A stretch of 64,000 nucleotides of DNA from an uncultured archaeon (lineage in GTDB: Archaea > Hadarchaeota > Hadarchaeia > Hadarchaeales > WYZ-LMO6): contig CALJER010000015.1 of NCBI GenBank assembly GCA_938074535.1, positions 1,544 to 65,543 on the forward strand, in the 5' to 3' direction. This document shows positions 4,053 through 36,306 of this stretch, in pieces (the first letter of the stretch is position 1; every line of letters begins with the position of its first letter). The translations under genes and the position numbers were made by a program. The notes under the pieces are model-generated. The model was not told where the DNA came from and searched no databases. It saw only the letters and a program-made list of their open reading frames with translations.

Positions 4053-4207
4053 CCTTTTTTTCTTCGGCGGCGCCGGTGAAAAGGCTTTTGCCCAAACCTG
4101 GGGGCGGCGGATGGCGGGTCCTTTTCCGGCTGCGGCGAGGGGTTGGGAGAATTTTTAAGACCAGTGCTCCAACCCTACGGCGGGGAAGAGTTTTGGTGAG
4201 GAAAGGG

Positions 4208-4657: not shown

Positions 4658-4659
4658 GG

Positions 4660-6048: not shown

Positions 6049-6859
6049 CGGAGCACCCGCAAGTCCGCGATTCCGCCGTGAGCAGCTGGAAGATCTCCTC
6101 CAGCTCTCTTGCGGAAAGCGGATCTGGGATCTTACCATCCTCCATCCTGAGGAGGGACAGCGATATGGATTTGACGAGGTGCGAGATGCCGGAGTTGGGC
6201 GAAAGCTCTATCACGGTCTTCCTTAATTTATCTGCCCACCTCAGCTCCTCCGAGTAGGGAAGGCTTCCGATGATCGGGATTCCCACCCTCTTCGAAAACT
6301 CTTCAACGTACCTCTTTCCGCGGGGCGTTGCCTTGTTGTACACAATACCGCAGGATGGTGCCTTGAGAGAGGAAAGTCCCAGACAGATGTTGTTCGCCGC
6401 GTATATGGACATGAACTCGTCGGAGGTGACGATGAGAACACTCTCCGCATATCCTTCTTTGACGACGATCGCAAGCCCGCCGCACAGGATATCCGCCGGC
6501 ACATCGAAGATTACAAAATCAAAGCTGCCGATGTCTAGTTTGCCCAGGAGGTGCCCAATTCCAACTATCAGCCCTCTGCCGGCGCATCCCACCCCCGGCT
6601 CAGGACCACCCACTTCAACACCGTAGACCCCAAACACTCCCCTAAAGAGAAAACTCTCGACGGGCGGGTTTTTGTTCGACCTCATCACCTCCAGCAGCGG
6701 GGTTACCCTCCTTCCGAGGATGTTCGTTGTTGAGTCTGCCTTTGGATCACATCCGACCAGCAGAGTTTTGAGATTCATTTCCCCGAGGGCCGCAGCTATG
6801 TTTGAGGCCAAAGTTGACTTTCCAATTCCCCCCTTTCCGTATATTGCCACGGATCTCAT
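6035..6859 (-). CDS. cfbC: Ni-sirohydrochlorin a,c-diamide reductive cyclase, NifH-like ATPase component.
   Basis: MRSVAIYGKGGIGKST P-loop and CGG/CAGRG NifH/BchL family motifs. ATG at 6859 sits immediately after the cfbD stop. No nifK/nifDK partner, but cfb partners are adjacent. Confidence 0.85.
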   Translation of the reverse strand: MRSVAIYGKGGIGKSTLASNIAAALGEMNLKTLLVGCDPKADSTTNILGRRVTPLLEVMRSNKNPPVESFLFRGVFGVYGVEVGGPEPGVGCAGRGLIVGIGHLLGKLDIGSFDFVIFDVPADILCGGLAIVVKEGYAESVLIVTSDEFMSIYAANNICLGLSSLKAPSCGIVYNKATPRGKRYVEEFSKRVGIPIIGSLPYSEELRWADKLRKTVIELSPNSGISHLVKSISLSLLRMEDGKIPDPLSARELEEIFQLLTAESRTCGCSDESS

Positions 6860-7941
6860 TGGGTTCCCCCTGCAAGCCCCCTGATGCTCTCGCCCAATAT
6901 TGATTTGCAAATTCTCCTGTTTCCCAGAGAGGCACTGTGGGCACCCTCCTCGTTGACCACATAATCATATCCCAAGGACTTCAGGTTCGAAGCGGCCCTC
7001 CTGCCGGCACTAACAGCCACCGTCCTCAGCTTGCCTTCAACGGCCACGGCATGTGGTATGCCCGAGATTATTGCTAGATCCGGACGGATGTCGAAGAGGA
7101 CTTCTCTTGCTCTTTCTCCCGAGATGGGGTACTCATCGAGGCCCCCCGTGATTACCTCCACCTCGATTCCCCGAGCGCTCAGCTCCTGGAGGATTTTTTC
7201 TGAGTAGGATCTTATCCTGGGAAGGCCAATTTTGGGGTCCAGGTTGGCAACGAAATGAACGCTTCCGCTTTTTCCAAATCCGGCATCGGCTAGGGCAAGG
7301 AAGAGGTCGGCGTAGAGAAAAGCAGTTTCCTTCTTGGCATTCAGGACGCATGCCACCTCACCTCCACCCTCGAGGGTTCGGAGTATCAGGGAGCCTACGG
7401 CGGCAGGATCGTCGCCGGGGCTACCGGGTATGTACTCTGCTCTAGCGGTACCCCTTGTCCTCTCCAAAAGAGCTGCCATCTCCAGCGCATGCTTCTGCCG
7501 GGAGTATTCTTCCCTGCTTACCAAACCCGCTTCCATGGCTTCTTTGAGGACCGCTACCGCTCCAAGAGTGTTATCTCCAGAGGCGCTGTGAATGCTACAG
7601 CATATCGCCTTTTTGATAACACCAGCTTCGGCGGCCGCCCTCCTGAGGTCCTCACCGATGATCATGCTGGCACAGGTACCAACGACGCCAATCAGCTTAG
7701 GATTGAAGAGCTCGTCTACTTTCCTCAGCGTCGCTGAAAGTTTTCTCTCCCCCCCGAATATCAATTCGTCTTCCGACATGGCGGTCGTCACTATCTTCAC
7801 CCCTTCTTTTTCAAGCAGCCTGGCTGGGCCGAAGCAGCAGCCGGAGGGGCCGTGCAGGACTATAACGTCTGCATCCAGATCCCTGAGGGTATACATAGCG
7901 GCAGCGATCGGGCTCGGTCTAGGATGCATTGCAGCGGACAT
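6856..7941 (-). CDS. cfbD: Ni-sirohydrochlorin a,c-diamide reductive cyclase, NifD/NflD-like component.
   Basis: 361 aa NifD/BchN-like protein (VIVLHGPSGCCFG...), too short for a true nitrogenase alpha chain. Sandwiched between cfbE and cfbC. Confidence 0.8.
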   Translation of the reverse strand: MSAAMHPRPSPIAAAMYTLRDLDADVIVLHGPSGCCFGPARLLEKEGVKIVTTAMSEDELIFGGERKLSATLRKVDELFNPKLIGVVGTCASMIIGEDLRRAAAEAGVIKKAICCSIHSASGDNTLGAVAVLKEAMEAGLVSREEYSRQKHALEMAALLERTRGTARAEYIPGSPGDDPAAVGSLILRTLEGGGEVACVLNAKKETAFLYADLFLALADAGFGKSGSVHFVANLDPKIGLPRIRSYSEKILQELSARGIEVEVITGGLDEYPISGERAREVLFDIRPDLAIISGIPHAVAVEGKLRTVAVSAGRRAASNLKSLGYDYVVNEEGAHSASLGNRRICKSILGESIRGLAGGTQ

Positions 7942-9229
7942 GCTCTTCCCTCTCTAGACGCAGGGTCGGGACCCTCGAGGCCCCAACGGGCCCCACCACA
8001 CTTTTCGATATCATCGATCGGAGGGCCTCGCCGAGTTCACCAAACAGGTAGACCTCTTCAAACGGGCTGGAGTTAATGACCTTTGCTAGTTCCACCAAGT
8101 TCACAGGCCCGCAGGTGGTCTTGAGCCTTCCGCCGATCTCCAGCCTGATCGGCGGTAGGACTTCAAGATAGTCTTTGATTGCTTTGTCCGCGGCTTTTTC
8201 ATTTATTGCTGGGCTCCTGTTCAGGATCAGAGGTCCCGAGGGGTCTTCTAAGACCATCTTTTTTGAGAAGGTTTCTGGGGGGATTTCCACTTTTTCCTCA
8301 GAAACACCAAAAAACTTTGCTATAGAAACCCCAACGAGGATGTTCTCCACATTTTGTCTGCCGATGGGCCCTTGGGCCTCGACCAGGGTTCTGGAATGGG
8401 TGGGGCCTTCCAAGGTCATGAAGCCCCGGAAGTTCGCAGTGAACTTGATGTAGCCAGCGCCGATGCATACCCCTTCCGCTGAGATCTCACAAGGTAGAGG
8501 ATGTGCAGAGAAGTACTGGACGTTTGAAACTCCCCTTAATAGAGGATCATCTGCATTGAGCAGAACGGTTGAATTTGGCTTTCTTTGTCTAACCATCGAC
8601 ATTTTCGCCGCAAGGGCAGAGGAGGAACCTTTTGCTATGGGATAGTTATCGTACACGTTCTTCAGGATTCCAAGATCGGCCATACCCGTCCCGCCCAGGG
8701 AAAGCTCGAAGATGGCAAGATCGGGATCCCTTGGACAGAGCTTCAGCGCTTTTATTATGTTAGCGGGAGTCGAGCTTGCGCTTTCTGACAGCACTCTCTC
8801 GCTCGCCCCCTTTATGAATTTTATACCATCGCTTGTCAGGCTCAGAATGGAGTAGCGGTCTCTGAGCAAGGCGGTTGCGCATCTGACAGCGGTCGTCTTC
8901 CCAAAGCTGCCCGTTATCTCCACCACGGGGAAGTGCACTTTACCGCAAGCCAGCATTCTCACCGCTTCGTGATGCGTTACAAGCCTATCCTTAAAGTCCG
9001 CAAACGACGAGGAGGGAAAGTGGACGGGGCTGACTATCAGGTCATATTTTGGGAGTTCGGAGGGATCCGGGACCTCACGCAGAATTTCCAGCTCTTTAGA
9101 ATATTCCTCACCTTCTGAGTCCTTAAGGGTCCTATAAACGTCGACGCACGTTACGGTGTCGCCCCGCTCGGTGAACGCCTCGGAGAGGGTCAGCCCGCCG
9201 TGGGTGGCATCTACAACGAGAACCTTCAA
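7919..9229 (-). CDS. cfbE: Coenzyme F430 synthetase (MurF/Mur-ligase-like).
   Basis: Mur ligase features (EITGSFGKTT P-loop, central and C-terminal Mur domains). Probable TTG start at 9229 overlapping the cfbA stop (TTGA). The listed ORF extends to 9508 only as a low-complexity N-terminal read-through. Confidence 0.75.
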   Translation of the reverse strand: MKVLVVDATHGGLTLSEAFTERGDTVTCVDVYRTLKDSEGEEYSKELEILREVPDPSELPKYDLIVSPVHFPSSSFADFKDRLVTHHEAVRMLACGKVHFPVVEITGSFGKTTAVRCATALLRDRYSILSLTSDGIKFIKGASERVLSESASSTPANIIKALKLCPRDPDLAIFELSLGGTGMADLGILKNVYDNYPIAKGSSSALAAKMSMVRQRKPNSTVLLNADDPLLRGVSNVQYFSAHPLPCEISAEGVCIGAGYIKFTANFRGFMTLEGPTHSRTLVEAQGPIGRQNVENILVGVSIAKFFGVSEEKVEIPPETFSKKMVLEDPSGPLILNRSPAINEKAADKAIKDYLEVLPPIRLEIGGRLKTTCGPVNLVELAKVINSSPFEEVYLFGELGEALRSMISKSVVGPVGASRVPTLRLEREEHVRCNAS

Positions 9230-9624
9230 GCTCTCAAAGCCTCCTTGATTCTGTCGTTGAGGATCTCCACTACTCGATCGTCCGCCCCTATGGGATCGCT
9301 GAGCACCACTTTGACCTTTTTTGTTGCAGCTTCGATCCTCCAAACCCTCGCTCCAGCGGGCATTCCCAAGATTTTTGGTATGTCTTGGTCGACGTGGGTT
9401 CCCCTGGTGAGAAAGACGGGCTGGATGATGAGCTCCTCTATCCCAGCGTTCAAGCTCTCTGAAATCACCTCCTGAAGGGAGGGTTTGTTCATTCGCATGA
9501 AAGCGCACCTAACATAGGGATGCTCGGCTTCAAGCTTTTTTGCAAAGTACTTTATAGCCCTCTTATTGTGTGGCTCCCTGCTTCCATGTCCTACCAGAAT
9601 TATTCCGATCTTTTTTGGCATCAT
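9226..9624 (-). CDS. cfbA: Sirohydrochlorin nickelochelatase (small CbiX-type).
   Basis: About 132 aa CbiX-small: KKIGIILVGHGSREP. Start overlaps the hemD stop (9621-9623). Confidence 0.8.
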   Translation of the reverse strand: MMPKKIGIILVGHGSREPHNKRAIKYFAKKLEAEHPYVRCAFMRMNKPSLQEVISESLNAGIEELIIQPVFLTRGTHVDQDIPKILGMPAGARVWRIEAATKKVKVVLSDPIGADDRVVEILNDRIKEALRA

Positions 9625-10367
9625 GCCGCCCCCAGGGAGGAGAGTACTCCCCACAGGGAAGGCTCTGGCGCTACGGAGGGCTCTATCCCAGATGATTTTA
9701 GAACTCTCGCCGTTTCCGGTCCGATTGCGATCACGTGGGTACTTTTAAGAAGCGATTGGAGCTTTCTTCTGGCTTTGAAGGGCAAAAAAGCTTGCATGAG
9801 CTCGAAGGAGGAACCGGAGGTGAAGACCACAAAATCTGCTCCGGTTCTAAGAGTTCTCAGAAATTTTTCGACGCCCTTTGGATCCACCACCGGCGAATAA
9901 ATCCGATACTCCTCGACGGGTATTCCTCCCTCAGAAAGGGCTCTGCGCATTAGATCATTTGCAAAGCTGCTTCTGAGCAAGGCGATCGATGAGAAGGGAT
10001 GCTCAGAGTGGTCGCTCAGGATTTCCTCGAGGAGCGCCTTGCTCGTGTATCTACAGGGCAACCTCACCTTGGTCAGGCCGAACTTCTCTAAAGAGGCCTT
10101 AGTTGAGGGTCCGACGGCGTAGAGCCTCATCTCCGATAAGCTGCGGATAATTTTTTTGGAGGGATTGACCACTCTTAGAGACCTCGGACTCAAAAATACG
10201 GCGGAGTCGTGGCGCTGATGGGATAGATTCTCTTTCAGTCTCAGAATCTCCTCCCTCTTGGGCAGAAGCCTTATGGTGCTTATCCTAAGGGGTCTGCAGC
10301 CGTATTTTTGAAAAGGAGAAGGGTCAAAAGGAGACAACGATGTTAACACAACCTTTCTGCATCTCAT
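9621..10367 (-). CDS. hemD: Uroporphyrinogen-III synthase.
   Basis: 248 aa HemD-like two-lobe protein between cobA and cfbA. Start overlaps the cobA stop. Confidence 0.65.
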   Translation of the reverse strand: MRCRKVVLTSLSPFDPSPFQKYGCRPLRISTIRLLPKREEILRLKENLSHQRHDSAVFLSPRSLRVVNPSKKIIRSLSEMRLYAVGPSTKASLEKFGLTKVRLPCRYTSKALLEEILSDHSEHPFSSIALLRSSFANDLMRRALSEGGIPVEEYRIYSPVVDPKGVEKFLRTLRTGADFVVFTSGSSFELMQAFLPFKARRKLQSLLKSTHVIAIGPETARVLKSSGIEPSVAPEPSLWGVLSSLGAA

Positions 10368-11077
10368 CGGAGGAACACCTCCGCGACGCGCCCTATTACC
10401 AGGACGCCAGGAGCTTTTTCCCTTCGTGAGGTATTCAAGAGATCCTTGACGCGGATGAGCTCTTTCCTGACGCGAGAACCGGTGGAGGTTATGATTGCTC
10501 CAGGGGTTTCAGGATCAATTCCGCCCTCAATGAGGTTCCTGGCCACAAAGGAAAGGTTCCTCATTGACATGAGGAGAACCAACGTTCCGGGGAACTTGGC
10601 ATGCCTCTTCAGATACTCCCCTTCGTCCTCGCTACCCGCCAAGCTCCCACTCAGGATGACGACGGAGGAGGAAACTCCGCGCATGGTAAGCGGGATTCTT
10701 GCTAGCGTCGGCAGCGCAACTGCCGAGGTGAGGCCGGGCACCACTTCCACCTCTATTCCCTCTGCCTCGAGGGCCTGGAGCTCTTCGCCACCTCTGCCAA
10801 ACACGAAAGGGTCGCCGCTTTTCAACCGAACAACACAAAGCCCCTCCCTTGCAAAGTTTTTCATCAAGTCAACGATCTCCCGCTGTTTTTCCGGGCCCTC
10901 TCCGGGCTCTTTTCCCACATAGATGATTTTCGCCCCCTTCTTGGCTATATTTAGAATACTCTCGTCCACAAGACGGTCGTGGAGTATTACATCCGCTTCC
11001 GAGATTATCCTGTGAGCCCTTAGGGTGAGATTATCGATTCCAAGAACACCGGCGCCAACCAGATAGACTCTACCCTT
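10364..11077 (-). CDS. cobA: Uroporphyrinogen-III C-methyltransferase (SUMT; precorrin-2 forming).
   Basis: GRVYLVGAGVLGIDNLTLRA, VVRLKSGDPFVFGRGGEE and PGLTSA motifs of TP-methylase family. GTG start at 11077, so the listed N-terminal extension is rejected. Confidence 0.85.
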   Translation of the reverse strand, partial: KGRVYLVGAGVLGIDNLTLRAHRIISEADVILHDRLVDESILNIAKKGAKIIYVGKEPGEGPEKQREIVDLMKNFAREGLCVVRLKSGDPFVFGRGGEELQALEAEGIEVEVVPGLTSAVALPTLARIPLTMRGVSSSVVILSGSLAGSEDEGEYLKRHAKFPGTLVLLMSMRNLSFVARNLIEGGIDPETPGAIITSTGSRVRKELIRVKDLLNTSRREKAPGVLVIGRVAEVFLR

Positions 11078-11987
11078 CACGGAACTCCCTCCAGAACCAC
11101 TCCAGCTCGCGGTTGTTGAGGACGAGTTCAGCGACCCTCCTTCCGGTATCTTCGGGAGCCCCCCTTGGGAACCTGAATTCGAAAATTCTGAAATTTGACC
11201 CGTCTGCAGCGTAAAAACCGCACACAATTTTTACGGATTCGCCTTCGACCCGCGCCGTAAATCCGATGGGTGCCGAGCAACCAGATCTCATGGCCTTCAG
11301 GAAAGACCTCTCGATCGATACTTCTTCCATAGCTTCCGGCGAATTTATCAGCTGGACCAAAGATTTAACATCCGAGTCATCGCTCCTCGCTGTTATGGCA
11401 AGCGCACCCTGACCCGGGCTTGTGGGGAAGCGCTCAATGGGCATGCGCTCCCATTTCCCCCCGAGCCCAAGTCTGATCAGAGCAGCTTCTGCGACCACTA
11501 TGCCGTCGTATTTTCCTTCCCTCAGGCGTTTAAGTCTCGTATCTACGTTGCCCCTCAAATGTGATATCTCGAGGTCCCCTCTGAAACATTTGAGCTGTGC
11601 TGCTCTTCTCGGGCTGCTGGTTCCGATGATTGCTCCTTTGGGCATTGAACTGAGTGGTGAGCCCTTACGAGAGATGAATGCATCGCACGGAGAGATCCTC
11701 TCCGGAACTGCTACGACGGAGACTCCTGGTGGGAGTGAGGTTGGCACGTCTTTGAGACTGTGGACCGCGAGGTCAACATCGCCCCTCAGAAGGGCTTCGT
11801 CGATCTCCCTCTCAAAGGTTCCGCTGCCCATCTCTCTTGCTGCTAAGCTGTTCAGTTCATCTCCGGAAGTCTTTATCTTAACAATGGCAAAGTTGAAATC
11901 GCTCAAGGATTGCAATCTCTTGATGACGTGCTCGGTTTGGATGAGTGCCAACCTGCTTCCTCTACTTCCAACCCTGAGAGTTCTCAA
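11070..11987 (-). CDS. hemC: Porphobilinogen deaminase (hydroxymethylbilane synthase).
   Basis: LRVGSRGSRLALIQTEHV N-terminus and dipyrromethane cofactor Cys region. TTG start at 11987 directly after the hemL stop. Confidence 0.85.
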   Translation of the reverse strand: MRTLRVGSRGSRLALIQTEHVIKRLQSLSDFNFAIVKIKTSGDELNSLAAREMGSGTFEREIDEALLRGDVDLAVHSLKDVPTSLPPGVSVVAVPERISPCDAFISRKGSPLSSMPKGAIIGTSSPRRAAQLKCFRGDLEISHLRGNVDTRLKRLREGKYDGIVVAEAALIRLGLGGKWERMPIERFPTSPGQGALAITARSDDSDVKSLVQLINSPEAMEEVSIERSFLKAMRSGCSAPIGFTARVEGESVKIVCGFYAADGSNFRIFEFRFPRGAPEDTGRRVAELVLNNRELEWFWREFREG

Positions 11988-13234
11988 CCAGACCACCCAC
12001 CAGCGATAGCGGAAGAAAAAACCTCTGCTGTCTTTTGCAGATCTTCTTCGGTGTGAGCCACGGATAGAAAGCAGCACTCAAACTGGGAGGGCGGTAAGAA
12101 GACGCCCCCCTCCAGCAGGAGAGCTTGTAACTTCAAAAATCTATTTGTATCACATTTTCTGGCATCTTCAGCATTTCTCAGGCGGTTCTGCGTCAGAAAA
12201 AGCGTGAAGATCGAGCCCATCCTGTTTATCTGAGCGGGGATTCCGGCATCCTCGAGAAGATCCTCCAGGGCAGAACACAGACGCTCGGTCTTAGATTCCA
12301 GCTCAGCGTACACAGAGTCCCTGAGTCTCCTCACCACCGACAGGCCCGCAGAGGTGGCCACAGGGCTTCCGTTGAACGTTCCCGCGTTGTACACTCTGCC
12401 GGCTGGAGCAACCATTTCCATTAGCTCCCTCCTGCCTCCAAAGGCGCCGATGGGGAAGCCCCCCCCTATTATCTTTCCGAGCAAGGTTATGTCGGGCCTC
12501 AGGCCGAAGAGTTGCTGTGCTCCCCCCTTAGAGAGGCGGAATCCCGTAATAACTTCGTCGAAGATCAGGAGTGCTCCAGCTTCATCGCACGCTCTCCTGA
12601 GCTCTCTCAGAAAGCCTTTTTCTGGCGGGATCAATCCCACATTGCCCATTACAGGTTCCACTATAACACAGGCGACGCTCTCGTCAACGATATCTAAGGC
12701 CTCGAAGTCGTTGAAGGGTATGACTTTGGTTTTGTCGAGAAGATCACCCGGTATCCCTTCGCTGATGGGCGATTTGCTGGATTCAACACCATTCACTAAA
12801 AGTGAGTCCACCGCTCCGTGGTAGCAACCATCGAACTTGACGACCACCTCTCTTTTGGTAAAGGCCCTGCACAGCCTGATGGCGTTCGTAGCTGCCTCCC
12901 CTCCGGAGTTGACAAACCTAATCATCTCTATCGAGGGAACTGATCGGATGATCTCTTCGGCCAACTCCAGTTCGGCTAGGTGAGGTGTTCCAAAGAGAGT
13001 CCCCCTGCGCACCTGCTCATGAACTGCCTCGATCAAAAAATCTGGGGAATGACCAAAGATAAGAGGGCCGTAGGCCATGCAGAAATCGATGAGTTCTCTT
13101 CCGTCTTCAGTTATGAGGCGGGATCCCTTGGCTGAGGAGGTAAAGAACGGGTAGGGTTTGAAAAACCTAACCGGGCTGTTCACGCCGCCGGGGAAGACCC
13201 TTTTACTTCGAAGGAACAGGTCTTCGGATTTCAT
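11984..13234 (-). CDS. hemL: Glutamate-1-semialdehyde 2,1-aminomutase.
   Basis: 416 aa class-III aminotransferase; LIFDEVITGFR, VFPGGVNSPVR motifs. Confidence 0.9.
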   Translation of the reverse strand: MKSEDLFLRSKRVFPGGVNSPVRFFKPYPFFTSSAKGSRLITEDGRELIDFCMAYGPLIFGHSPDFLIEAVHEQVRRGTLFGTPHLAELELAEEIIRSVPSIEMIRFVNSGGEAATNAIRLCRAFTKREVVVKFDGCYHGAVDSLLVNGVESSKSPISEGIPGDLLDKTKVIPFNDFEALDIVDESVACVIVEPVMGNVGLIPPEKGFLRELRRACDEAGALLIFDEVITGFRLSKGGAQQLFGLRPDITLLGKIIGGGFPIGAFGGRRELMEMVAPAGRVYNAGTFNGSPVATSAGLSVVRRLRDSVYAELESKTERLCSALEDLLEDAGIPAQINRMGSIFTLFLTQNRLRNAEDARKCDTNRFLKLQALLLEGGVFLPPSQFECCFLSVAHTEEDLQKTAEVFSSAIAGGWSG

Positions 13235-14202
13235 GACTGTTCTTCCCTTAAGGCCTTTACAACCTCGGGAGCGTAGTACGATATTATGATGTCTGCTCCC
13301 GCCCTCTTTATCGCGGTGAGAGCTTCTAGAAAAACCCCTCTCTCGTCTGTGTCAGTGCTTTTGCAGTATTCCTTGAGCATAACGTACTCCCCACTCACTT
13401 GATACGCCGCCAGTGGGCAAGTCAAAATTCTTCTGAGCTCGCTGATGACATCGAGGTACGGCATGGCAGGTTTGACCATCACCATATCCGCCCCCTCCTG
13501 TATGTCCTGGAGAGCTTCCTTAACGGCTTCCCTCCTATTCCTGAAGTCCATCTGGTACGAAGAACGGTCGCCGAAAGCCGGGGCGGAAGACGCGACCTCT
13601 CTGAAGGGGGAGTACAAAAAGGATCTGAACTTGGCGGAGTAGGACATTATGCCCACATCCTCAAAACCACCTTCGTCTAGAGCGCTCCTTATCGCCGACA
13701 CCTGACCATCTGCCATAGCCGAGGGAGCAACGATGTCAGCCCCGGCTTCGGCGTGGCTAACCGCTATCCTGGACAGTATTGAAAGGGTTTTGTTCCTGTG
13801 AATCCTACTTCCTTCGAGTATACCGCAATGACCGTGGTCAGTGTACTGACAGAGGCAAACATCTGTGAGGATGTTAACAGGGGGCAGGGACGCCTTAATA
13901 GCTCTTATCGCTCTCTGGACCACTCCGTCGCCGCTGTAAGCATGAGATCCCAGGGAGTCTTTCGATGAGGGTACACCAAAGATGAGAAAGGAACGGAGGC
14001 CTGAGGCTATGTACCCCGACAGGTACTCCACAAGGCCAGAGAGGGGCACCTTTTCCATACCGCCCCAGCGGGATCTCTCAATGTCGCCAGTCTCTTTGAC
14101 AAAGATGGGATAGATGAAGTTGTGGGGAGCCAAGGCGGTCTCAGAGACGAGGTCCCTCAATATCTTGTTGCGCCTAAGCCTGGATGTGATTGTTTTTTTC
14201 AT
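13231..14202 (-). CDS. hemB: Porphobilinogen synthase (delta-aminolevulinate dehydratase).
   Basis: 323 aa; active-site lysines and metal-site region (VMVKPAMPYLDV...). Overlaps hemL start and hemA stop. Confidence 0.9.
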   Translation of the reverse strand: MKKTITSRLRRNKILRDLVSETALAPHNFIYPIFVKETGDIERSRWGGMEKVPLSGLVEYLSGYIASGLRSFLIFGVPSSKDSLGSHAYSGDGVVQRAIRAIKASLPPVNILTDVCLCQYTDHGHCGILEGSRIHRNKTLSILSRIAVSHAEAGADIVAPSAMADGQVSAIRSALDEGGFEDVGIMSYSAKFRSFLYSPFREVASSAPAFGDRSSYQMDFRNRREAVKEALQDIQEGADMVMVKPAMPYLDVISELRRILTCPLAAYQVSGEYVMLKEYCKSTDTDERGVFLEALTAIKRAGADIIISYYAPEVVKALREEQS

Positions 14203-15383
14203 TCAAAACCCTCCGACTTTGCTCCGGAGTTTGCTATGGAGAAGATGATATCACGCATAAAGGCATAGGTGAACTCCTCGATGACCTTTTTCTGGTCCTC
14301 TGTGAAAGCACACTTTCTGAAGGCGAAGTCGACGGCCTCTCTTCTCTTAACTTCAGCCCAACGCATCAGCATTTCAAAATTCGTTTTCCTGTCCCCCAAC
14401 TTTAGCCTCCCGATCAAAGCCCTCAGCGAGTCCTCGATAATCCTTTCAGCTTCTTTTACAGCTTTTTTCCTAACTCTGAGGTTGTTTTTCGCGATACTGC
14501 TTATGAGATCGAAATCAATCAGTTCTACTCCTCCAACATGCTTTATTCCTTCATCAACGCCTCTTGGGTTCGAAACGTCCAATATCAAAAGACCATTCAA
14601 TTTCAGGCCCTCCAAATCCTCCTTTTTGAGGATGGGATGGGGGGAGGAGGTGGCGCAGACGACGGCATCGGCATCGGCGATAACTTCTTTAAGCCCGTCG
14701 AAGTGCACGGCTCTTCCCCCTACTTCACTCGCGAGACGTTCAGCTCTTGAGTAGGTTCGATTTGCCACAAAGATGGTCACGGTTCCCTTGCGGGGCACGG
14801 ATTTTGCGACCATGCTTCCTATCCTGCCGGCACCGATTATGACCAGCTTCCTTCCCTCCAGGGACCCAAGCTTTTCGGTTATGATTTTTATGACCACATT
14901 CCCCAGCGAAATCGAGCCTTTGGAGATGGAGGTTTCGCGCCTTACAACTCCGCCGCAATTTATGGCTGCGCTGAAGACCGATTCCATGGTTGATTTAGCA
15001 GTTCCCAAAATTTTTGCTCGCTCTAAGCTCTCTCGAATCTGATGCAGGATCTCTGTCTCGCCAACTATTACTGACTCCAGTCCCGCGGCCAGATAAAAAA
15101 GGTGGCGGACAGCGTCATAGCCCTCAAAAAGTTCCGCGTACGGCTCAAGTGGGTACGCGCTGTTGGTAGAGTTTCTTAAGAATTCTTTGAGCAGTTCCCC
15201 GCTCACGTTTGAACCGGAAGCGTAGATCTCCACTCTGTGGCAAGTTTGAACTATAACGCACTCCTCTGCTCCTTCCTTCTTAAGTTGAATTAATGCTGAT
15301 TGGGGGTCGGTCAGGGTGAAACTTTCCAACACTCGAATTGGTGCCTTTTTGTGGTTGAGCGTTAAACAGTATATGGGAATCAT
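14199..15383 (-). CDS. hemA: Glutamyl-tRNA reductase.
   Basis: HKKAPIRVLE and CHRVEIY catalytic Cys motif, then a GAGRIG NADPH-binding domain. ATG at 15383 chosen over the listed 15437 extension. Confidence 0.85.
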   Translation of the reverse strand: MIPIYCLTLNHKKAPIRVLESFTLTDPQSALIQLKKEGAEECVIVQTCHRVEIYASGSNVSGELLKEFLRNSTNSAYPLEPYAELFEGYDAVRHLFYLAAGLESVIVGETEILHQIRESLERAKILGTAKSTMESVFSAAINCGGVVRRETSISKGSISLGNVVIKIITEKLGSLEGRKLVIIGAGRIGSMVAKSVPRKGTVTIFVANRTYSRAERLASEVGGRAVHFDGLKEVIADADAVVCATSSPHPILKKEDLEGLKLNGLLILDVSNPRGVDEGIKHVGGVELIDFDLISSIAKNNLRVRKKAVKEAERIIEDSLRALIGRLKLGDRKTNFEMLMRWAEVKRREAVDFAFRKCAFTEDQKKVIEEFTYAFMRDIIFSIANSGAKSEGFE

Positions 15384-15763
15384 CGATCTCAACATGGTCA
15401 AGTTTGAATTTATTCTTTCTTGTTTCATATGAAACAAAAAAGTGAAGGGATCGAGCCAATGAAATGAACGTTTGTACGAGGAGGCTTTATTGGCCGATCA
15501 GCTTGCCGACCGACCCCTGTCTTGCAAAGTGTCTTCCCCCCGGCTCGCGGAGCCCTTCCGGGTGCCCCTTCCCGCGCACATTACCGCCTCCCTTCTCCAC
15601 GCAGCACCCTCTCCGCCGCCCCCCTCAGTCTCGCACAGGTATCCCACCAGGATCTCGTCCATGCTGGTGCCCCCAGCTGGGTGTCCCCGCTGGTGCTCTT
15701 CACCCCGACCCCTCCCCTTCCCGGGAGGAAAGCTTCCGCCCCGGGCCTCTCCCCCTTGGTGGA

Positions 15764-15840
15764 TGGCGGGCCCGTCGGGATTCGAACCCGAGTTGCAGGC
15801 TCCGCAGGCCTGTGTCTTATCCAGGCTAGACCACGGGCCC
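15764..15840 (-). tRNA. tRNA-Arg (anticodon GCG), CCA encoded.
   Basis: Reverse complement GGGCCCGTGGTCTAGCCTGGATAAGACACAGGCCTGCGGAGCCTGCAACTCGGGTTCGAATCCCGACGGGCCCGCCA folds as a cloverleaf (7-bp acceptor, GTTCGAATC T-loop, anticodon loop CTGCGGA). tattaat TATA-like element about 25 nt upstream on its strand. Confidence 0.85.
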
Positions 15841-31489: not shown

Positions 31490-31969
31490 TCAGAGATAGC
31501 CCGTGTTCCCCTCCCAGACGCGGTAGGAGTTGTCGGTCAGGGTGAGGTGGACCTTTACGTAGTACTGTTGCCCCCTCTGCGGGTGGGTCCCGCCCTGGAG
31601 GGTCCACTTCGCCGCATCCTCCTTCAGCACGAGCTTATGGTTTTCGGGAGAGGGAAGGCCGCCGAACTTGACTTCGAAGACCTTCACCAACCCTACGCCG
31701 TCCCCCTTATCTATATCCACCGACCACGCCTTCACCCCACGGCCGCCGCTGGTGATCTCCACCACTATTGCGAAGTCGTAGGGTGAGACATTTCCCATGA
31801 AGTCAACCCAGTCGTCGAAGTAAACCCTGTCCACCGAGAAATAGTCCGGGGATAAACCTGGAGGGGCCCCCTGTCCCCCCTGTCCTTCCCCCCTCGAGCG
31901 CAGGACCGCTATGGAGGAGGCGGCTATCACCACCACCAGGAGGACCAGAAGAGCTCCCCAGTACCTCAT
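31490..31969 (-). CDS. Hypothetical secreted/membrane-anchored protein with N-terminal signal/TM segment.
   Basis: MRYWGALLVLLVVVIAASSIAVL hydrophobic N-terminus. Confidence 0.5.
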   Translation of the reverse strand: MRYWGALLVLLVVVIAASSIAVLRSRGEGQGGQGAPPGLSPDYFSVDRVYFDDWVDFMGNVSPYDFAIVVEITSGGRGVKAWSVDIDKGDGVGLVKVFEVKFGGLPSPENHKLVLKEDAAKWTLQGGTHPQRGQQYYVKVHLTLTDNSYRVWEGNTGYL

Positions 31970-31999
31970 CCTTTTAGCTTTTCCCCCATTTTTTTAAGC

Positions 32000-33181
32000 T
32001 TGACGGGTAAGGAGGAGGGGTCCCGCGTGAAGGTGAAGGACCTGATGTCGGGGGAGTTCCAGACCATAGGGGAGGAGGAGTTCCTCTCCAGGGCGGTGGG
32101 GATGTTCAGGGAAGGTGCGGTGAAGCCGGGAGGGGCTCTGCTGGTGGTGGACGGGAAGGGAAGGTGCAGGGGGGTGCTCACGGAGCGCATGATCGTCAGG
32201 TCCAGGCTTGACCCCAGCAGGACCAAGGTGAAGGCGGTCTACCGCCCCTCCCCTTCCCTCTCACCCGAAGAAGGGGCGGAGGAGGCGGCGAGGCTGATGG
32301 TGGAGAACGACCTGAAGCACCTCCCGGTGGTGGAGGGGGAAAAGGTGGTGGGGGTGGTGACCGACATGGCCCTCCTGCAGAGAATGGTGGAGGGCGAGGA
32401 TGGTTCGAGGCCCGTGAGGGAGGTGGCCACCAGGGAGGTGAGGACGATAGACGAGAACGAGTCCCTGGCCACGGCCCTGGCGGTGATGAGGGAGGAGGGT
32501 GTGTCCAGGCTTCCCGTCACCAGGAGGGGAAAGCCCGTGGGCATCATCACCATGCACGACCTGGTGGTGCGCGTGATAAGACCGAAGGACCAGGTGAGGT
32601 TCGGGGATCTGGCGGGGGAGAAGCCCAGGCCCCTCGGCACGCCGGTGAGGGGGCTGATGAGCGAGCCCCTGCTCGGGGTCCGTCCGGACGCCACCCTCAG
32701 GGAGGCGGTGAGGCTGATGGCGGAGAGGAACGTGGCCTCGCTGGCGGTGATGGAGGACGGGAGGCTGGAGGGGATCCTCACGAAGAGCGACCTCCTCTCC
32801 TCGCTGGCCAGGAAGGAAGAGAAAGGGGGGGTCTACCTGCAGCTCTCCCTGGACAGGAGCGCGGTGGACGACCTGGAGTACGAGCGCATGGTATCCGACC
32901 TAAAGGGCTTCGCCAGGAAATACGCCCAGCAGGTGAGGGGAGGGGTGCTCACCGCCCACTTCAAGAGGGTGGGGAGCAGGAGGGGAAGCCAGCCCCTGGT
33001 GAGCTGCAGGCTCACGGTGAGGGGAAAGGAGCAGCTGGTGGGGGTGGGGGAAGGGTGGGGATTCGCGCAGGCCCTCTCCTCCGCCATGGGACACGTGGAG
33101 AGGAGGCTCATGAGGAGCAGGGAGAGGGAGAAGGACCGCAGGCTGGAGGAGAGGCTGCTGGAAAAGTTCGTGTGGGAGTGA
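32000..33181 (+). CDS. CBS-domain protein (four CBS motifs) fused to a C-terminal HPF/RaiA (YfiA)-like ribosome-associated inhibitor domain.
   Basis: Four CBS repeats (..LLVVDGKGRCRGVLTERM.., ..KHLPVVEGEKVVGVVTDMAL.., ..SRLPVTRRGKPVGIITMHDL.., ..ASLAVMEDGRLEGILTKSDL..). C-terminal about 100 aa (VYLQLSLDRSAVDDLEYERMVSDLKGFARKYAQQ...VSCRLTVRGKEQLVGVGEGWGFAQALSSAMGHVERRLMRSRE) follows the HPF beta-alpha-beta-beta-beta-alpha pattern. Confidence 0.75.
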   Translation: MTGKEEGSRVKVKDLMSGEFQTIGEEEFLSRAVGMFREGAVKPGGALLVVDGKGRCRGVLTERMIVRSRLDPSRTKVKAVYRPSPSLSPEEGAEEAARLMVENDLKHLPVVEGEKVVGVVTDMALLQRMVEGEDGSRPVREVATREVRTIDENESLATALAVMREEGVSRLPVTRRGKPVGIITMHDLVVRVIRPKDQVRFGDLAGEKPRPLGTPVRGLMSEPLLGVRPDATLREAVRLMAERNVASLAVMEDGRLEGILTKSDLLSSLARKEEKGGVYLQLSLDRSAVDDLEYERMVSDLKGFARKYAQQVRGGVLTAHFKRVGSRRGSQPLVSCRLTVRGKEQLVGVGEGWGFAQALSSAMGHVERRLMRSREREKDRRLEERLLEKFVWE

Positions 33182-33183
33182 GC

Positions 33184-33993
33184 TCAGCCCAGCCCCTCCA
33201 GCTCCCTCAGCACCTCCAAAGCCTCTTCCCTGCTCTCCGGCAGGACCACCGAGTAGACCTGGCATCCCCTCTTCCCGAACTCCTCCGCCCTCTCCCCCAC
33301 CTCCTGGGCCGTGGCCCAGTCCTGCAGGGAGAAGACGAAGGAGTCCCTCCTCTCCGGGGGCAGGCCCTCCTTGAGGGAGCGGGCCAGCTTTCCGTACTGC
33401 TCCGGGGAGAGGGCGGCGGGGATCCAGCCGGAGCCGTGCCGGAGGGCGAGCTCCAGCATGCGCTTCCCGGTGCTTCCCACCCACAGCGGTGGGTGCGGCC
33501 TCTGCAGGGGCTTGGGCTCCAGGATCCCATCCTCCACGGAGTAGAACTCCCCCCGGAAGTTCACCCTCTCCTCCGTCCACATCCTCACCATGAGCTCCAC
33601 CGCCTCCGAGGTTCTCCTCACCCTCGCACCTGCCCTCTCCCACTGCCCGTAGATCTTGAACTCGTCCGCGTGCCACCCGGCCCCCACCCCCACCACCAGC
33701 CTCCCCCCCGAGAGGTGATCCAGGGAGGAGATCATCTTGGCCAGGAGGGGGGGATGGCGGAGGGGGATGGGGGTCACGCAGGTCCCCAGCTTTATCCTCT
33801 CCGTTTTGCCCGCCAGGTAGGAGAGGAGGGTGTAGGCTTCCAGCGTCCTCTCACCCCCTTGCATGGGCAGGAGGAGGTGATCCCACACCAGGAAGACCTC
33901 CGCTCCTCTCTTCTCGGCCTCCCCGGCCATCTCCGCCGCCAGGGAAGGGTCGGAGTAGCTCCCGTAAGCTGGGTAGATCACCCCGAACCTCAT
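33184..33993 (-). CDS. LLM-family F420-dependent-type oxidoreductase, copy 2.
   Basis: MRFGVIYPAYG..., LGTCVTPIPLRHP, GRLVVGVGAGW motifs. Start placed at the internal Met directly after the HDAC-2 stop. Confidence 0.8.
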   Translation of the reverse strand: MRFGVIYPAYGSYSDPSLAAEMAGEAEKRGAEVFLVWDHLLLPMQGGERTLEAYTLLSYLAGKTERIKLGTCVTPIPLRHPPLLAKMISSLDHLSGGRLVVGVGAGWHADEFKIYGQWERAGARVRRTSEAVELMVRMWTEERVNFRGEFYSVEDGILEPKPLQRPHPPLWVGSTGKRMLELALRHGSGWIPAALSPEQYGKLARSLKEGLPPERRDSFVFSLQDWATAQEVGERAEEFGKRGCQVYSVVLPESREEALEVLRELEGLG

Positions 33994-35060
33994 CCTTTCC
34001 CCACCTCCAGCCCGTGGAGGGGAAAAAGGTTTCTCTTCACCTCCTCCACCACCTCCCTCACCTCCCTCCAGAGGGCGGGCGGTGAGGTCCTTTCCTCGTC
34101 CATCAGCCCCTTCAGTTTCTCCAGCGGAAAGCCGGAGAGGAAGGAGAACATCACGGTCCAGCACCGGCACACGTCGGAGGGGCTGTAGCCCCCTCCCCCC
34201 AGCACCAGGTACCTCCCCCCGCAGAGCTCGTGGGCGAGCCCGTGCATGATCCTGGAGAGCGCCAGGTAGCCGTGGGTGGTGAGGCCCAGCCCCACCAGGG
34301 GGTCCCTGAAGTGCCCGTCGACCCCGAACTGGTGGATGAGGACCTCGGGACGGTAGGCCCTCAGGAGGGGAGGGACCACCTCCTCGAAGGCGAAGAGGTA
34401 GGCGTCGTCGGAGGTCCCTCCAGGAAGGGGTATGTTCACGGAGTATCCCCTCCCCTCACCCTCCCCCACCTCCCAGGGGTAGCCCGTCCCTGGGTAGATC
34501 CCCTCCCTGTGCAGGGAAATCTTGAGCACGGGCTCCCTGTAGAGGAGGTCCTGGGTTCCGTCCCCGTGATGCCCGTCCGTGTCCACCACGGCAATCCTCT
34601 TCACACCTTTCCTCTGGAGGTACCTCACGCAGAGGACCACATCGTTGAACACGCAGAAGCCCGCCGCGTGCTCGCTGCCGGCGTGGTGCAGCCCCCCTCC
34701 CGGGTTGAAGGCGTGTTCCGCTTCCCCTGCCAGCACCAGCTCGGCCCCCTTGAGGGAGCCCCCCACCACCCAGAGGGAGCCCTCGTAGAGCTCCTTCGTG
34801 GCGGGGGTGTCACCGTAATCCAGGAAGCCCGTCCCCCTCTCGCTCATCCTCTTCACGAAGTCCACGTATTCCTTGGAGTGGACCATCAGGAGGTCCTCCT
34901 CGCCGGCCGGCTCGGGCTCCACCAGCCTCGCGTACTCCCCTATCACCCCCAGCTCCCTCAACTTCTCCACGGTCCTCCTTTCCCTCTCAGGCTGGAAGGG
35001 ATGGCGGGGACCGAAGTGGTACTTCAGGTACCCCTCCGAGTAGACCAGGATGCTCCTCAT
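33990..35060 (-). CDS. Histone deacetylase superfamily protein (AcuC-like), copy 2.
   Basis: GGGLHHAGSEHAAGFCVFND, DTDGHHGDGTQ, FGVDGHFRD motifs. ATG 35060; co-directional with and abutting the LLM-2 gene. Confidence 0.85.
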   Translation of the reverse strand: MRSILVYSEGYLKYHFGPRHPFQPERERRTVEKLRELGVIGEYARLVEPEPAGEEDLLMVHSKEYVDFVKRMSERGTGFLDYGDTPATKELYEGSLWVVGGSLKGAELVLAGEAEHAFNPGGGLHHAGSEHAAGFCVFNDVVLCVRYLQRKGVKRIAVVDTDGHHGDGTQDLLYREPVLKISLHREGIYPGTGYPWEVGEGEGRGYSVNIPLPGGTSDDAYLFAFEEVVPPLLRAYRPEVLIHQFGVDGHFRDPLVGLGLTTHGYLALSRIMHGLAHELCGGRYLVLGGGGYSPSDVCRCWTVMFSFLSGFPLEKLKGLMDEERTSPPALWREVREVVEEVKRNLFPLHGLEVGKG

Positions 35061-35118
35061 CCTCAGCTCCTTTCCTTGGCTCGGAAAAAGCTTAACCTCC
35101 CACGCCGGAAGTTCTTCG

Positions 35119-36306
35119 GTGGAGGCGGACTTCAGCAGGAAGGAACTGGAGAACGGCATGACGGTTCTGGTGGAGCGCAGGCAGCTCCCCCTCTTCTCCT
35201 GCGTGCTGGCCGTCAGGGCGGGTGCAGCCCATGAGCCTGAGAGGGAGAAGGGGGTGGCCCACTACCTGGAGCACTGCCTCTTCCAGGGGACGGAGACCCG
35301 CTCCTCCGAGGAGCTCTCTGCCGCGGTGGAGAAGAGGGGAGGCACGCTCAACGGGTTCACCGCCGAGGAGCTCACGGCCTTCTGGCTGAGGCTCCCCTCG
35401 CAGCACCTGGAGCTCGGGCTGGAGCTGCTGGGGGACATGCTCTTCCATCCGGCTTTTCAGGAGGAGAGACTGGAGAAGGAGAAGAGGGTGGTGCTTGAAG
35501 AGGTGAAAATGGTTCACGACAATCCCAGGTCCCACGTGCTGAGTAGGATCAAGTCCCTTCTTTACGAGAGGCCCTTCGGGGTGGAGGTTCTGGGGGAGAT
35601 GGAGACGGTGAGGAAGCTCTCCAGGGCCTCGCTCCTGAGCTTCCTGGGGAACTACAACCGGCCCATCCTCTCGGTGGTGGGCAAGGTGGACCCGGAGGAG
35701 GTGGTGGAGATGGCCAGAAGGTATCTCCCCTTTCCCAAGAGGCCTGAGCCGGGGATCAGGGTGAGGAGGAGGAGGGGGGGGAGGGTGGAGAGGAGGAAGG
35801 AACTCAGGCAGGCCCACCTGGTGCTGGGCTTCCATACCCCCACCCTCAGGGACAGGAGGAGGTATGCCCTTCAGTCCTTTCTGGCGGTGCTGGCGGAGGG
35901 GGCCTCCTCCAGGCTCTTCCAGGAGATCAGGGACAGGAGGGGGCTGGCCTACGAGGTGTCCGCCCACCTCAACCTGGGGAGGAGCTACGGCTACGCGGCC
36001 CTCTACGCCGGGACGGAGCCCGGGAAGGTGGAGGAGGTGAAGGGGCTCATGCTCTCGGAGATAAAGAAGATGCGCGAGCTCGACCGGAAGGAACTGGAGG
36101 AGGCCAAGGAGCAGCTCATAGGCCAGTACAGACTGATGGCTGAGAACAGCTACAGGGTGGCCCTCGCCCTGGTCTACGAGGAGCTGGCCGGATCGGCGGA
36201 GGAGTTCTACAGGTACGAGGAGAGAGTCTCCGGGCTGACCCTGGAGGAAGTGAGGGGGCTGGGGAGGCTCGGGGATTACTCTTTTTTCCTCCTCCTCCCA
36301 GGGTGA
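35119..36306 (+). CDS. M16-family zinc metallopeptidase (insulinase/pitrilysin-like).
   Basis: HYLEHCLFQGTE inverted zincin HxxEH motif. Start uncertain (GTG 35119 or ATG 35158); the listed 35050 start would overlap the divergent HDAC gene. Confidence 0.8.
   Translation: MEADFSRKELENGMTVLVERRQLPLFSCVLAVRAGAAHEPEREKGVAHYLEHCLFQGTETRSSEELSAAVEKRGGTLNGFTAEELTAFWLRLPSQHLELGLELLGDMLFHPAFQEERLEKEKRVVLEEVKMVHDNPRSHVLSRIKSLLYERPFGVEVLGEMETVRKLSRASLLSFLGNYNRPILSVVGKVDPEEVVEMARRYLPFPKRPEPGIRVRRRRGGRVERRKELRQAHLVLGFHTPTLRDRRRYALQSFLAVLAEGASSRLFQEIRDRRGLAYEVSAHLNLGRSYGYAALYAGTEPGKVEEVKGLMLSEIKKMRELDRKELEEAKEQLIGQYRLMAENSYRVALALVYEELAGSAEEFYRYEERVSGLTLEEVRGLGRLGDYSFFLLLPG

What the first reader, a model, noticed from the sequence alone, without database searches (positions are those of the whole stretch)
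32000..33181. CBS-domain sensor fused to an HPF/RaiA-like ribosome hibernation domain
The 393-aa protein has four CBS motifs (two Bateman modules, usually adenosine-nucleotide or SAM sensors). Its C-terminal about 100 residues follow the beta-alpha-beta-beta-beta-alpha pattern and spacing of bacterial hibernation-promoting factor/YfiA (compare MQLNITGHHVEITDALREYVEEKL...VHVVLKVEK...[36 protein letters not shown] with VYLQLSLDRSAVDDLEYERMVSDLKGFARKYAQQ...VSCRLTVRGKEQLVGVGEGWGFAQALSSAMGHVERRL). HPF homologues are not a recognised part of archaeal translation control. A fusion to an energy-charge sensor suggests nucleotide-gated ribosome silencing.
Basis: inference. Interest (0 to 1): 0.55.

Follow-up and report, generated by a model that had tools for sequence, protein, structure and literature searches.

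The report
Known archaeal ribosome hibernation factor HibA
This gene encodes an ordinary member of HibA/AHA, a family of archaeal proteins described in 2025-2026 that park idle ribosomes by plugging them with an HPF-like domain fused to a four-CBS AMP-binding module.

Summary
The ORF is real. Its start is probably GTG 32027 (384 aa), not TTG 32000. It has four CBS domains (Pfam E=4.7e-48) and a C-terminal domain of about 118 aa. [quoted passage not shown] Its 11 best structural matches in the PDB are all bacterial or chloroplast HPF/RaiA/pY chains on hibernating ribosomes. A sequence profile of the domain finds only HPF/RaiA chains after two archaeal CBS-fusion chains.

The whole protein aligns end to end (E=5.5e-73, 38% identity) with PDB 9SR9 chain H. 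That chain is Pyrococcus abyssi HibA, a ribosome hibernation factor characterised by cryo-EM and genetics (Nat Commun 2026, PMC13324472). The same family is called AHA in Haloferax volcanii (PMC12934967). The PTC-inserting loop in CBS3 is conserved, and so are the Thr/Asp nucleotide-pocket motifs of CBS3 and CBS4.

The host is a Hadarchaeota MAG. The family is reported in about 47% of archaeal genomes. So the structural interpretation is supported, but the claim that HPF homologues are unrecognised in archaea is out of date. Nucleotide binding is shown for homologues. Nucleotide gating of ribosome binding is still unproven for this family.

Verdict: already known, low interest.

The parts
31989..31999 (+). 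Conserved T-rich TATA-box-like element (TTTTTTTAAGC), about 30 nt upstream of the probable start; putative archaeal promoter of hibA
   Evidence: 10 of its 11 positions are invariant in the DNA alignment of the window with three Hadarchaeota loci; sequence read. The promoter function is inferred and was not tested.
32009..32020 (+). Purine-rich AAGGAGGAGGGG, Shine-Dalgarno-like, 7-11 nt upstream of GTG 32027
   Evidence: largely conserved. Whether it lies in the transcript depends on the unmapped transcription start.
32027..33181 (+). hibA coding sequence (revised start GTG; 384 aa plus stop).
   Evidence: the orthologue L003 has ATG at this position; P0002-P0004 begin MKVKDLMS. Full-length homology to P. 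abyssi HibA 9sr9_H, E=5.5e-73.
32027..32815 (+). CBS module: four tandem CBS domains, i.e. two Bateman modules (residues 10-272 in 393-aa numbering). In homologues it binds the 50S subunit at the tRNA sites.
   Evidence: Pfam PF00571, 4 stretches, E=4.7e-48. AF2 model pLDDT is mostly 85-95. Best structural matches are SriA, AMPK-gamma, MJ1225 and Dri.
32585..32638 (+). Extended loop after the second helix of CBS3 (residues 196-213, KDQVRFGDLAGEKPRPLG). It is the equivalent of the PTC loop of HibA (Pa residues 190-207) and loop 3 of AHA.
   Evidence: Aligned without gaps to the Pa-HibA loop, 7/18 identical, core G-D/E-L-A-G-E-K. Predicted as low-confidence coil, pLDDT<50 at 196-205.
32540..32560 (+). 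CBS3 nucleotide-pocket motif GIITMHD (residues 181-187; Thr184/Asp187 pair)
   Evidence: The T/D pair as nucleotide anchor is described. AMP/ATP are seen at the CBS3/CBS4 interface in homologues.
32771..32791 (+). CBS4 nucleotide-pocket motif GILTKSD (residues 258-264). G258, T261 and D264 are invariant in the 14-sequence alignment.
32825..33178 (+). [quoted passage not shown] In homologues it sits in the 30S mRNA/tRNA channel.
   Evidence: AF2 pLDDT 85.6. Foldseek top 11 hits are HPF/RaiA/pY, TM 0.50-0.72. Profile against PDB. 4/10 family members hit TIGR00741 and 3/10 hit PF02482.

Best explanation
The gene encodes the Hadarchaeota orthologue of HibA (also called AHA), an archaeal ribosome hibernation factor. 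[quoted passage not shown] The N-terminal four-CBS disc sits on the 50S subunit over the A/P/E tRNA sites and can insert its CBS3 loop (residues 196-213) into the peptidyl-transferase centre. This holds an empty 70S ribosome together, blocks translation and shields functional rRNA from degradation during stationary phase or stress. The CBS3/CBS4 pocket most likely binds adenine nucleotides, AMP best. Shown here: the architecture, the fold, the homology, and conservation of the loop and pocket motifs. Inferred from homologues: ribosome binding, translation inhibition and AMP binding. Not established even for homologues: that nucleotide binding switches ribosome engagement.
For: Full-length alignment to P. 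abyssi HibA (9sr9_H), E=5.5e-73, query 10-390 against 4-388, 38% identity (41% in the CBS module, 31% in the C-terminal domain). A second full-length solved homologue is 9l96_a, E=1.4e-38. Four CBS domains. [quoted passage not shown] Its top 11 Foldseek PDB hits are all HPF/RaiA/pY/PSRP1/RafH on hibernating ribosomes. With a profile of the C-terminal domain, all 17 PDB hits after the two archaeal CBS-fusion chains are HPF/RaiA/PSRP1, best E=0.0016. The PTC loop is conserved in length and in its core GDLAGEK. T/D pocket motifs are intact only in CBS3 and CBS4, the site where AMP/ATP were seen. The C-terminal profile finds 319 cluster representatives, and 80 of the best 150 have the same full fusion architecture. 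The function of the family comes from cryo-EM, in vitro translation inhibition and deletion phenotypes.
Against: No experiment exists for this protein or for any Hadarchaeota member. Identity to the characterised proteins is only 38% or less. The window's own C-terminal domain does not reach curated thresholds for bacterial HPF models (TIGR00741 12.7 bits against a cut-off of 40.9; no PF02482 hit), so the link to HPF rests on fold, on family-level profiles and on the HibA structure. The model could not be superposed on 9SR9 itself because that entry is not in the Foldseek library.
Confidence: 0.9

Rival explanations
1. One reading: the protein is an energy-charge switch. AMP binding at CBS3/CBS4 promotes ribosome engagement, for example by exposing the PTC loop, and ATP binding releases it. 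The ribosome is then silenced and reactivated directly by the adenylate ratio.
For: The Pa-HibA CBS module binds AMP (Kd 12 uM) more tightly than ADP (65 uM) or ATP (113 uM). Two AMP molecules were seen in ribosome-bound AHA next to loop 3, and its authors propose this model. The related CBS-only ARC complex is released from ribosomes by ATP. The T/D pocket motifs of CBS3 and CBS4 are intact in the window protein.
Against: In reconstituted P. abyssi 70S:HibA complexes, 5 mM AMP or ATP left binding and the distribution of conformations largely unchanged, and native complexes carried no nucleotide. ARC lacks the HPF domain and belongs to a different CBS family. Nothing was tested for this protein.
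Confidence: 0.35
2. The availability of the factor is controlled by sequestration rather than on the ribosome. Nucleotide binding regulates its association with other partners, such as the DNA replication and recombination proteins pulled down with the Thermococcales orthologues. The ribosome sees it only when it is freed.
For: The HibA authors raise this possibility on the basis of pull-down and mass-spectrometry data for Pab0961/TK1186 (discussion).
Against: Purely speculative. No partner gene is linked to hibA here: the neighbours are unrelated metabolic genes, and the gene order is conserved only within Hadarchaeota.
Confidence: 0.1
3. It is a generic CBS-domain regulator unrelated to ribosomes: a transcription factor like HhpR (the CM-3 family), or a subunit of a metabolic enzyme as suggested by legacy labels such as 'dehydrogenase' or IMPDH-related.
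For: NCBIfam gives only sub-threshold CBS-region hits to PrdR, IMPDH, HhpR and others. The PDB depositors' molecule name for 9sr9_H is 'Dehydrogenase'.
Against: All those hits cover only the CBS repeats and lie far below their cut-offs. The HPF-fold C-terminal domain and the full-length homology to ribosome-bound HibA are not explained by this reading. No catalytic domain is present.
Confidence: 0.03

Closest known systems
HibA (Pyrococcus abyssi Pab0961 / Q9UYR4; PDB 9SR9-9SRF, 9T7H; Madru et al., Nat Commun 2026, PMC13324472), equal to AHA (Haloferax volcanii HVO_2384; Souza et al., bioRxiv 2026, PMC12934967)
   Same: Same length (384-393 aa against 392 aa). Same order of four CBS domains followed by an HPF/RaiA-like domain. 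The two proteins are collinear over the full length (E=5.5e-73). The PTC loop is in the same place with the same core motif. T/D pocket motifs are in CBS3 and CBS4, and both have a long basic C-terminal helix.
   Different: Only 38% identical. It comes from an uncultured Hadarchaeota lineage and is untested experimentally. No feature was found that departs from the family description.
Bacterial HPF / RaiA (YfiA) / plastid pY-PSRP1 (Pfam PF02482, TIGR00741)
   Same: [quoted passage not shown] Remote sequence similarity is detectable at profile level. In HibA/AHA the domain occupies the same 30S site.
   Different: It scores below the curated family thresholds. Its beta2-beta3 hairpin is longer: E. 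coli HPF shows a 6-residue gap there. Its last helix is longer. It is fused at its N-terminus to a CBS tetrad rather than being stand-alone or carrying the C-terminal dimerisation domain of long HPF. HibA stabilises 70S ribosomes; 100S dimers were not reported for it.
SriA-D / ARC-A,P (Methanosarcina acetivorans, Methanolobus; PDB 9ZNF-9ZNI) and Dri (Pyrobaculum calidifontis; PDB 9E6Q, 9E7F)
   Same: All are CBS-tetrad ribosome hibernation factors of Archaea. SriA is the best structural match to the CBS module (Foldseek E=6.4e-23) and the third-best sequence match. The published phylogenies place the HibA CBS module next to SriA/CM-5.
   Different: They have no HPF domain. Sri/ARC act as separate proteins binding in tandem, and Dri is a fusion of two CBS tetrads. 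ATP-triggered release was reported for ARC but not for HibA.
AMPK gamma subunit (eukaryotic energy sensor)
   Same: It has the same four-CBS disc (Foldseek E about 1e-17, TM 0.46-0.60) and binds adenylates at sites equivalent to CBS3/CBS4.
   Different: It regulates a kinase heterotrimer, not the ribosome, and has no HPF domain and no PTC loop.

Membership tests
HibA / AHA archaeal hibernation factor | N-terminal module of four tandem CBS domains (about 270 aa) | tested here: met
   Pfam PF00571, 4 stretches, E=4.7e-48. The AF2 model shows four beta-alpha CBS units.
HibA / AHA archaeal hibernation factor | [quoted passage not shown] | tested here: met
   Model pLDDT 85.6 with topology E4-8, H16-37, E41-53, E56-66, E70-78, H80-116. 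Foldseek top 11 hits are HPF/RaiA/pY.
HibA / AHA archaeal hibernation factor | Collinear full-length sequence homology to an experimentally characterised member | tested here: met
   9sr9_H: E=5.5e-73, 249 bits, query 10-390 against 4-388, 38% identity. This is far above the next family, SriA, at 83.5 bits over the CBS region only.
HibA / AHA archaeal hibernation factor | Extended loop in CBS3 (PTC loop / loop 3) | tested here: met
   Window residues 196-213 align without gaps to Pa-HibA 190-207, 7/18 identical, core GDLAGEK. Predicted as disordered coil.
HibA / AHA archaeal hibernation factor | Archaeal-specific insertion in the beta14-beta15 hairpin of the HPF domain | tested here: met
   In the profile alignment E. 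coli HPF has a 6-residue gap opposite 'kekrrg' of the family profile (window residues 323-330, RVGSRRGS, by my reading of the alignment). The predicted hairpin strands are longer, 13 and 11 residues.
HibA / AHA archaeal hibernation factor | Archaeal-specific insertion between beta13 and alpha11 | tested here: inconclusive
   The model has a 7-residue connection with a short helical turn at 286-288. The alignments to bacterial HPF do not resolve this segment.
HibA / AHA archaeal hibernation factor | Adenine-nucleotide binding at the CBS3/CBS4 interface | not testable with these tools
   Consistent only: the G-h-h-T-x-x-D motifs are intact in CBS3 (181-187) and CBS4 (258-264) and degenerate in CBS1 and CBS2. 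G258, T261 and D264 are invariant.
HibA / AHA archaeal hibernation factor | Binds 70S/30S ribosomes and inhibits translation | not testable with these tools
   Shown for the P. abyssi and H. volcanii proteins, not for this one.
HibA / AHA archaeal hibernation factor | Encoded in an archaeal genome | tested here: met
   The closest genomes are Hadarchaeota MAGs (90%, 76% and 72% identity) with conserved gene order.
Bacterial HPF/RaiA family (PF02482 Ribosomal_S30AE; TIGR00741 yfiA) | Score above the curated model cut-off | tested here: not met
   TIGR00741 gives 12.7 bits (E=0.13) against a cut-off of 40.9, and there is no PF02482 hit for the window protein. Some relatives hit weakly (best 6.5e-5 and 1.7e-4). 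The protein is a remote homologue, not a member by these models.
Bacterial HPF/RaiA family (PF02482 Ribosomal_S30AE; TIGR00741 yfiA) | Stand-alone core domain, or core plus C-terminal dimerisation domain (long HPF) | tested here: not met
   Here the domain is C-terminal to a 270-aa CBS tetrad.
Sri / ARC / Dri CBS-tetrad hibernation factors | Composed only of CBS tetrad(s), with no HPF domain | tested here: not met
   An HPF-like domain is present. The matches to 9znf_4/5 and 9zni_6 stop at residue 267-269.

The most novel reading that the evidence does not exclude
The CBS3/CBS4 adenylate pocket of HibA-type factors might be a true energy-charge switch: AMP stabilises the PTC loop and ribosome engagement, and ATP promotes release. 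It has been hypothesised but not demonstrated for this family. This compact orthologue, probably from a thermophile, would be one more test case.
Probability: 0.35. Interest if true: 0.45.

Novelty: already known. Interest (0 to 1): 0.15.

Why it matters
The protein itself adds little, because the CBS-HPF fusion was discovered, solved on the ribosome, knocked out and surveyed across Archaea in 2025-2026. The result does show that a sequence-only reading recovered a real and recently validated piece of biology. It gives this gene in Hadarchaeota MAGs a functional name (hibA/AHA) in place of 'CBS domain-containing protein'. It also corrects the start codon. The one open question it touches is whether adenylate binding actually gates hibernation, and that question belongs to the whole family, not to this locus.

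Tried and rejected
(1) Pfam on the C-terminal 113 aa alone found nothing. NCBIfam gave only a sub-threshold yfiA hit. A family profile and fold comparison were therefore needed.

(2) The look-up of encoding contigs found no record for the exact protein, and the listing of cluster members gave no accession or name. The organism was inferred from genome contigs relatives instead.

(3) The Foldseek search with the full-length model was dominated by the CBS module and did not list 9SR9. That entry is evidently not in that library, which stops at 2026-04-08. I predicted the C-terminal domain separately to get round this.

(5) A regular-expression scan for the loop and 'GEGWG' motifs in distant homologues was too strict to be informative and was not used as evidence.

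(6) I looked for an operon or functional linkage with neighbours: aspartate kinase, LysA, an NMO-family oxidoreductase, a luciferase-like oxidoreductase, an HDAC-family protein and an M16 peptidase. The genes flanking hibA are on the opposite strand, and the gene order is conserved only among close Hadarchaeota relatives. I rejected linkage.

(7) I searched the window for further CBS or HibA paralogues and found none (tblastn).

(8) No paper in the library mentions PDB 9L96.

Full report
**Observation.** Pfam finds four CBS stretches (PF00571, E=4.7e-48) and nothing else significant. On its own, the C-terminal 113 aa has no Pfam hit. It gives only a sub-threshold match to the NCBIfam HPF/YfiA model TIGR00741 (12.7 bits, E=0.13, cut-off 40.9).

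**Start codon.** The TTG at 32000 immediately follows TTTTTTTAAGC (31989-31999). Ten of the eleven positions of this element are invariant in an alignment with three related Hadarchaeota loci, and it looks like an archaeal TATA box. A purine-rich AAGGAGGAGGGG follows at 32009-32020, then GTG at 32027. The 90%-identical orthologue has ATG exactly at the GTG position. The closest database homologues start MKVKDLMS. The gene is most likely 32027..33181 (384 aa). I keep the 393-aa numbering below for continuity.

**What it is.** A sequence search of the PDB gave a full-length hit to 9sr9_H, a 392-aa chain present in eight entries: E=5.5e-73, query 10-390 against chain 4-388. A second full-length hit was 9l96_a (406 aa, E=1.4e-38). 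Hits restricted to the CBS region followed, to chains of 9ZNF/9ZNI/9ZNG.

The literature search identifies 9SR9/9SRA as the Pyrococcus abyssi 70S ribosome with HibA. [quoted passage not shown] The C-terminal domain sits in the 30S mRNA/tRNA channel. The CBS module adopts three positions on the 50S subunit: at the PTC, at uL5 and at the L1 stalk. A loop in CBS3 (residues 190-207) reaches into the peptidyl-transferase centre. [quoted passage not shown] The family was found in 47% of archaeal genomes.

An independent preprint describes the same protein in Haloferax volcanii as AHA (HVO_2384). [quoted passage not shown]

**Independent tests of membership.**

(i) Identity to Pa-HibA is 38% over 377 aligned positions: 41% in the CBS module and 31% in the C-terminal domain.

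(ii) AlphaFold2 on a 14-sequence alignment gives mean pLDDT 79 for the whole protein, with low confidence only at the N-terminus, the CBS3 loop (196-205), the linker (273-276) and the last residues. The C-terminal domain predicted alone has pLDDT 85.6 and the topology strand-helix-strand-strand-strand-helix.

(iii) Foldseek of that domain against the PDB returns HPF, RaiA, pY/PSRP1 and RafH chains from hibernating bacterial and chloroplast ribosomes as its 11 best hits. Examples are 5zep_x (E=5.3e-5) and 6eri_BV (TM 0.66/0.72). Double-stranded-RNA-binding domains and others come below them.

(iv) A profile of ten C-terminal domains searched against PDB sequences finds HibA (7e-16) and 9l96_a (9e-14). 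After those it finds 17 further chains, and every one is an HPF/RaiA/PSRP1 protein (best E=0.0016). Four of the ten members hit TIGR00741 individually (best 6.5e-5) and three hit PF02482 (best 1.7e-4).

(v) The PTC loop is conserved. Window residues 196-213 (KDQVRFGDLAGEKPRPLG) align without gaps to Pa-HibA 190-207 (RFKAQYGELAGEKIPPFS).

(vi) In the profile alignment, E. coli HPF has a six-residue gap in the beta2-beta3 hairpin relative to the family. [quoted passage not shown] The other insertion could not be resolved.

(vii) The G-h-h-T-x-x-D motif supplies the Thr/Asp pair that anchors nucleotides in CBS pockets. It is intact in CBS3 (GIITMHD, 181-187) and CBS4 (GILTKSD, 258-264) and degenerate in CBS1 (GVLTERM) and CBS2 (GVVTDMA). 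G258, T261 and D264 are invariant across the alignment. This fits the CBS3/CBS4 nucleotide site seen in HibA and AHA.

**Distribution and host.** The closest reference genomes are Hadarchaeota MAGs: Ca. Hadarchaeales JZ-2 at 90%, Hadesarchaea WYZ-LMO6 at 76% and another at 72%. More distant full-length relatives occur in Nitrososphaeria, Bathyarchaeia, Thorarchaeota, Halobacteria, Woesearchaeota, Methanomassiliicoccales and Aenigmatarchaeota.

An exhaustive HMM search with the C-terminal profile over 1.84 billion cluster representatives finds 319 at E<=0.001. Of the best 150, 80 have the full CBS-tetrad plus HPF-like architecture. Another 38 are HPF-like proteins of 150 aa or less, and most of the rest look like fragments. 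This agrees with the published picture of HibA plus rarer stand-alone HPF/RaiA-like proteins. Hadarchaeota genomes were part of the HibA authors' survey set.

**Surroundings.** The two genes immediately flanking hibA are on the opposite strand: a 159-aa membrane-anchored hypothetical protein upstream and a luciferase-like oxidoreductase downstream. Further out lie aspartate kinase, diaminopimelate-decarboxylase-like LysA, an NMO-family oxidoreductase, an HDAC-family deacetylase, an M16 peptidase and an aldehyde:ferredoxin oxidoreductase. This order is conserved in the three Hadarchaeota loci but not in Nitrososphaerales, Bathyarchaeia or Natronomonas. It therefore reflects recent common ancestry rather than functional linkage. 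No other CBS or HibA paralogue lies in the 64-kb window.

**Mechanism.** The best-supported account comes from homology to the solved complexes. The HPF-like domain plugs the decoding centre and mRNA channel of the 30S subunit. The tethered CBS disc covers the tRNA sites on the 50S subunit, with its loop able to occupy the PTC. Empty 70S ribosomes are thus kept assembled, inactive and protected.

Whether adenylates gate this is open. HibA's CBS module prefers AMP (Kd 12 uM) over ADP (65 uM) and ATP (113 uM). Yet 5 mM AMP or ATP did not materially change binding or conformer distribution, and native complexes carried no nucleotide. The AHA authors saw AMP bound and propose that it stabilises loop 3. 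ATP-triggered release has been shown only for the HPF-less ARC complex.

**Comparison and novelty.** The protein meets every sequence and fold criterion of HibA/AHA that could be tested here. It fails the curated thresholds of the bacterial HPF models, so it is a remote homologue of them rather than a member. It is not a Sri/ARC/Dri protein because it carries the HPF domain, although its CBS module is structurally closest to SriA. Nothing about it departs from the published family description.

Its premise that HPF homologues are unrecognised in archaea has been overtaken by work from 2025-2026. I rate the finding already known, and interest is low.

Noticed in passing
window 4076-15437 (mostly - strand), next to tRNA-Arg(gcg) at 15764-15840: This block is about 10 points lower in GC (0.52-0.56 against 0.63-0.66). 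It encodes a complete tetrapyrrole-to-coenzyme-F430 route: GluTR, ALAD, HemL, PBG deaminase, SUMT, HemD and a precorrin-2 dehydrogenase-like protein. It also encodes CfbB-, CfbC-, CfbD- and CfbE-like proteins. CfbD scores above the curated cut-off (TIGR03282, 431 bits against 268); the other three score below theirs. F430 is the cofactor of methyl- and alkyl-coenzyme M reductases. Its presence in a Hadarchaeota genome, in a compositionally distinct block ending at a tRNA gene, suggests horizontal acquisition.
   Followed up: partly
window 1361-2854 (-): A B12-binding/radical SAM protein lies just beside the F430 block. It has weak, far sub-threshold similarity to the methyl-coenzyme M reductase glutamine C-methyltransferase family (TIGR04014, 41 bits against a cut-off of 360). 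It might be an MCR-modifying enzyme or something unrelated.
   Followed up: no
L050 (3061-4191) and L053 (2138-3262): Two contigs binned as 'uncultured Gammaproteobacteria' encode 374-376-aa relatives that match the query well into the HPF-like region (query residues 72-376 and 4-345). They are either bacterial HibA/AHA-like proteins or misbinned archaeal contigs. The AHA preprint mentions a few bacterial AHA-like sequences, mainly in Patescibacteria.
   Followed up: no
PDB 9l96_a (also 9l98, 9l9c, 9l9v): This is a second solved full-length homologue: 406 aa, labelled 'CBS domain-containing protein', E=1.4e-38. Its chain name suggests a ribosome complex. No paper in the searchable library cites these entries, so its organism and context are unknown to me.
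   Followed up: partly
window 33184-34170 (-) and 33990-35159 (-): The mechanically listed luciferase-like oxidoreductase ORF (328 aa from GTG 34170) overlaps the 3' end of the HDAC-family gene by about 180 nt. Its Hadarchaeota orthologues align only from about residue 35 onward. Its true start is probably an internal codon (MRFGVIYP...). Its stop lies only 2 nt from the hibA stop, on the other strand.
   Followed up: partly
window 31493-31969 (-): This is the divergent neighbour of hibA. It encodes a 159-aa protein with an N-terminal hydrophobic anchor and no Pfam family. It is conserved (58-86% identity) in the three Hadarchaeota loci and shares the 57-nt intergenic region with hibA.
   Followed up: no
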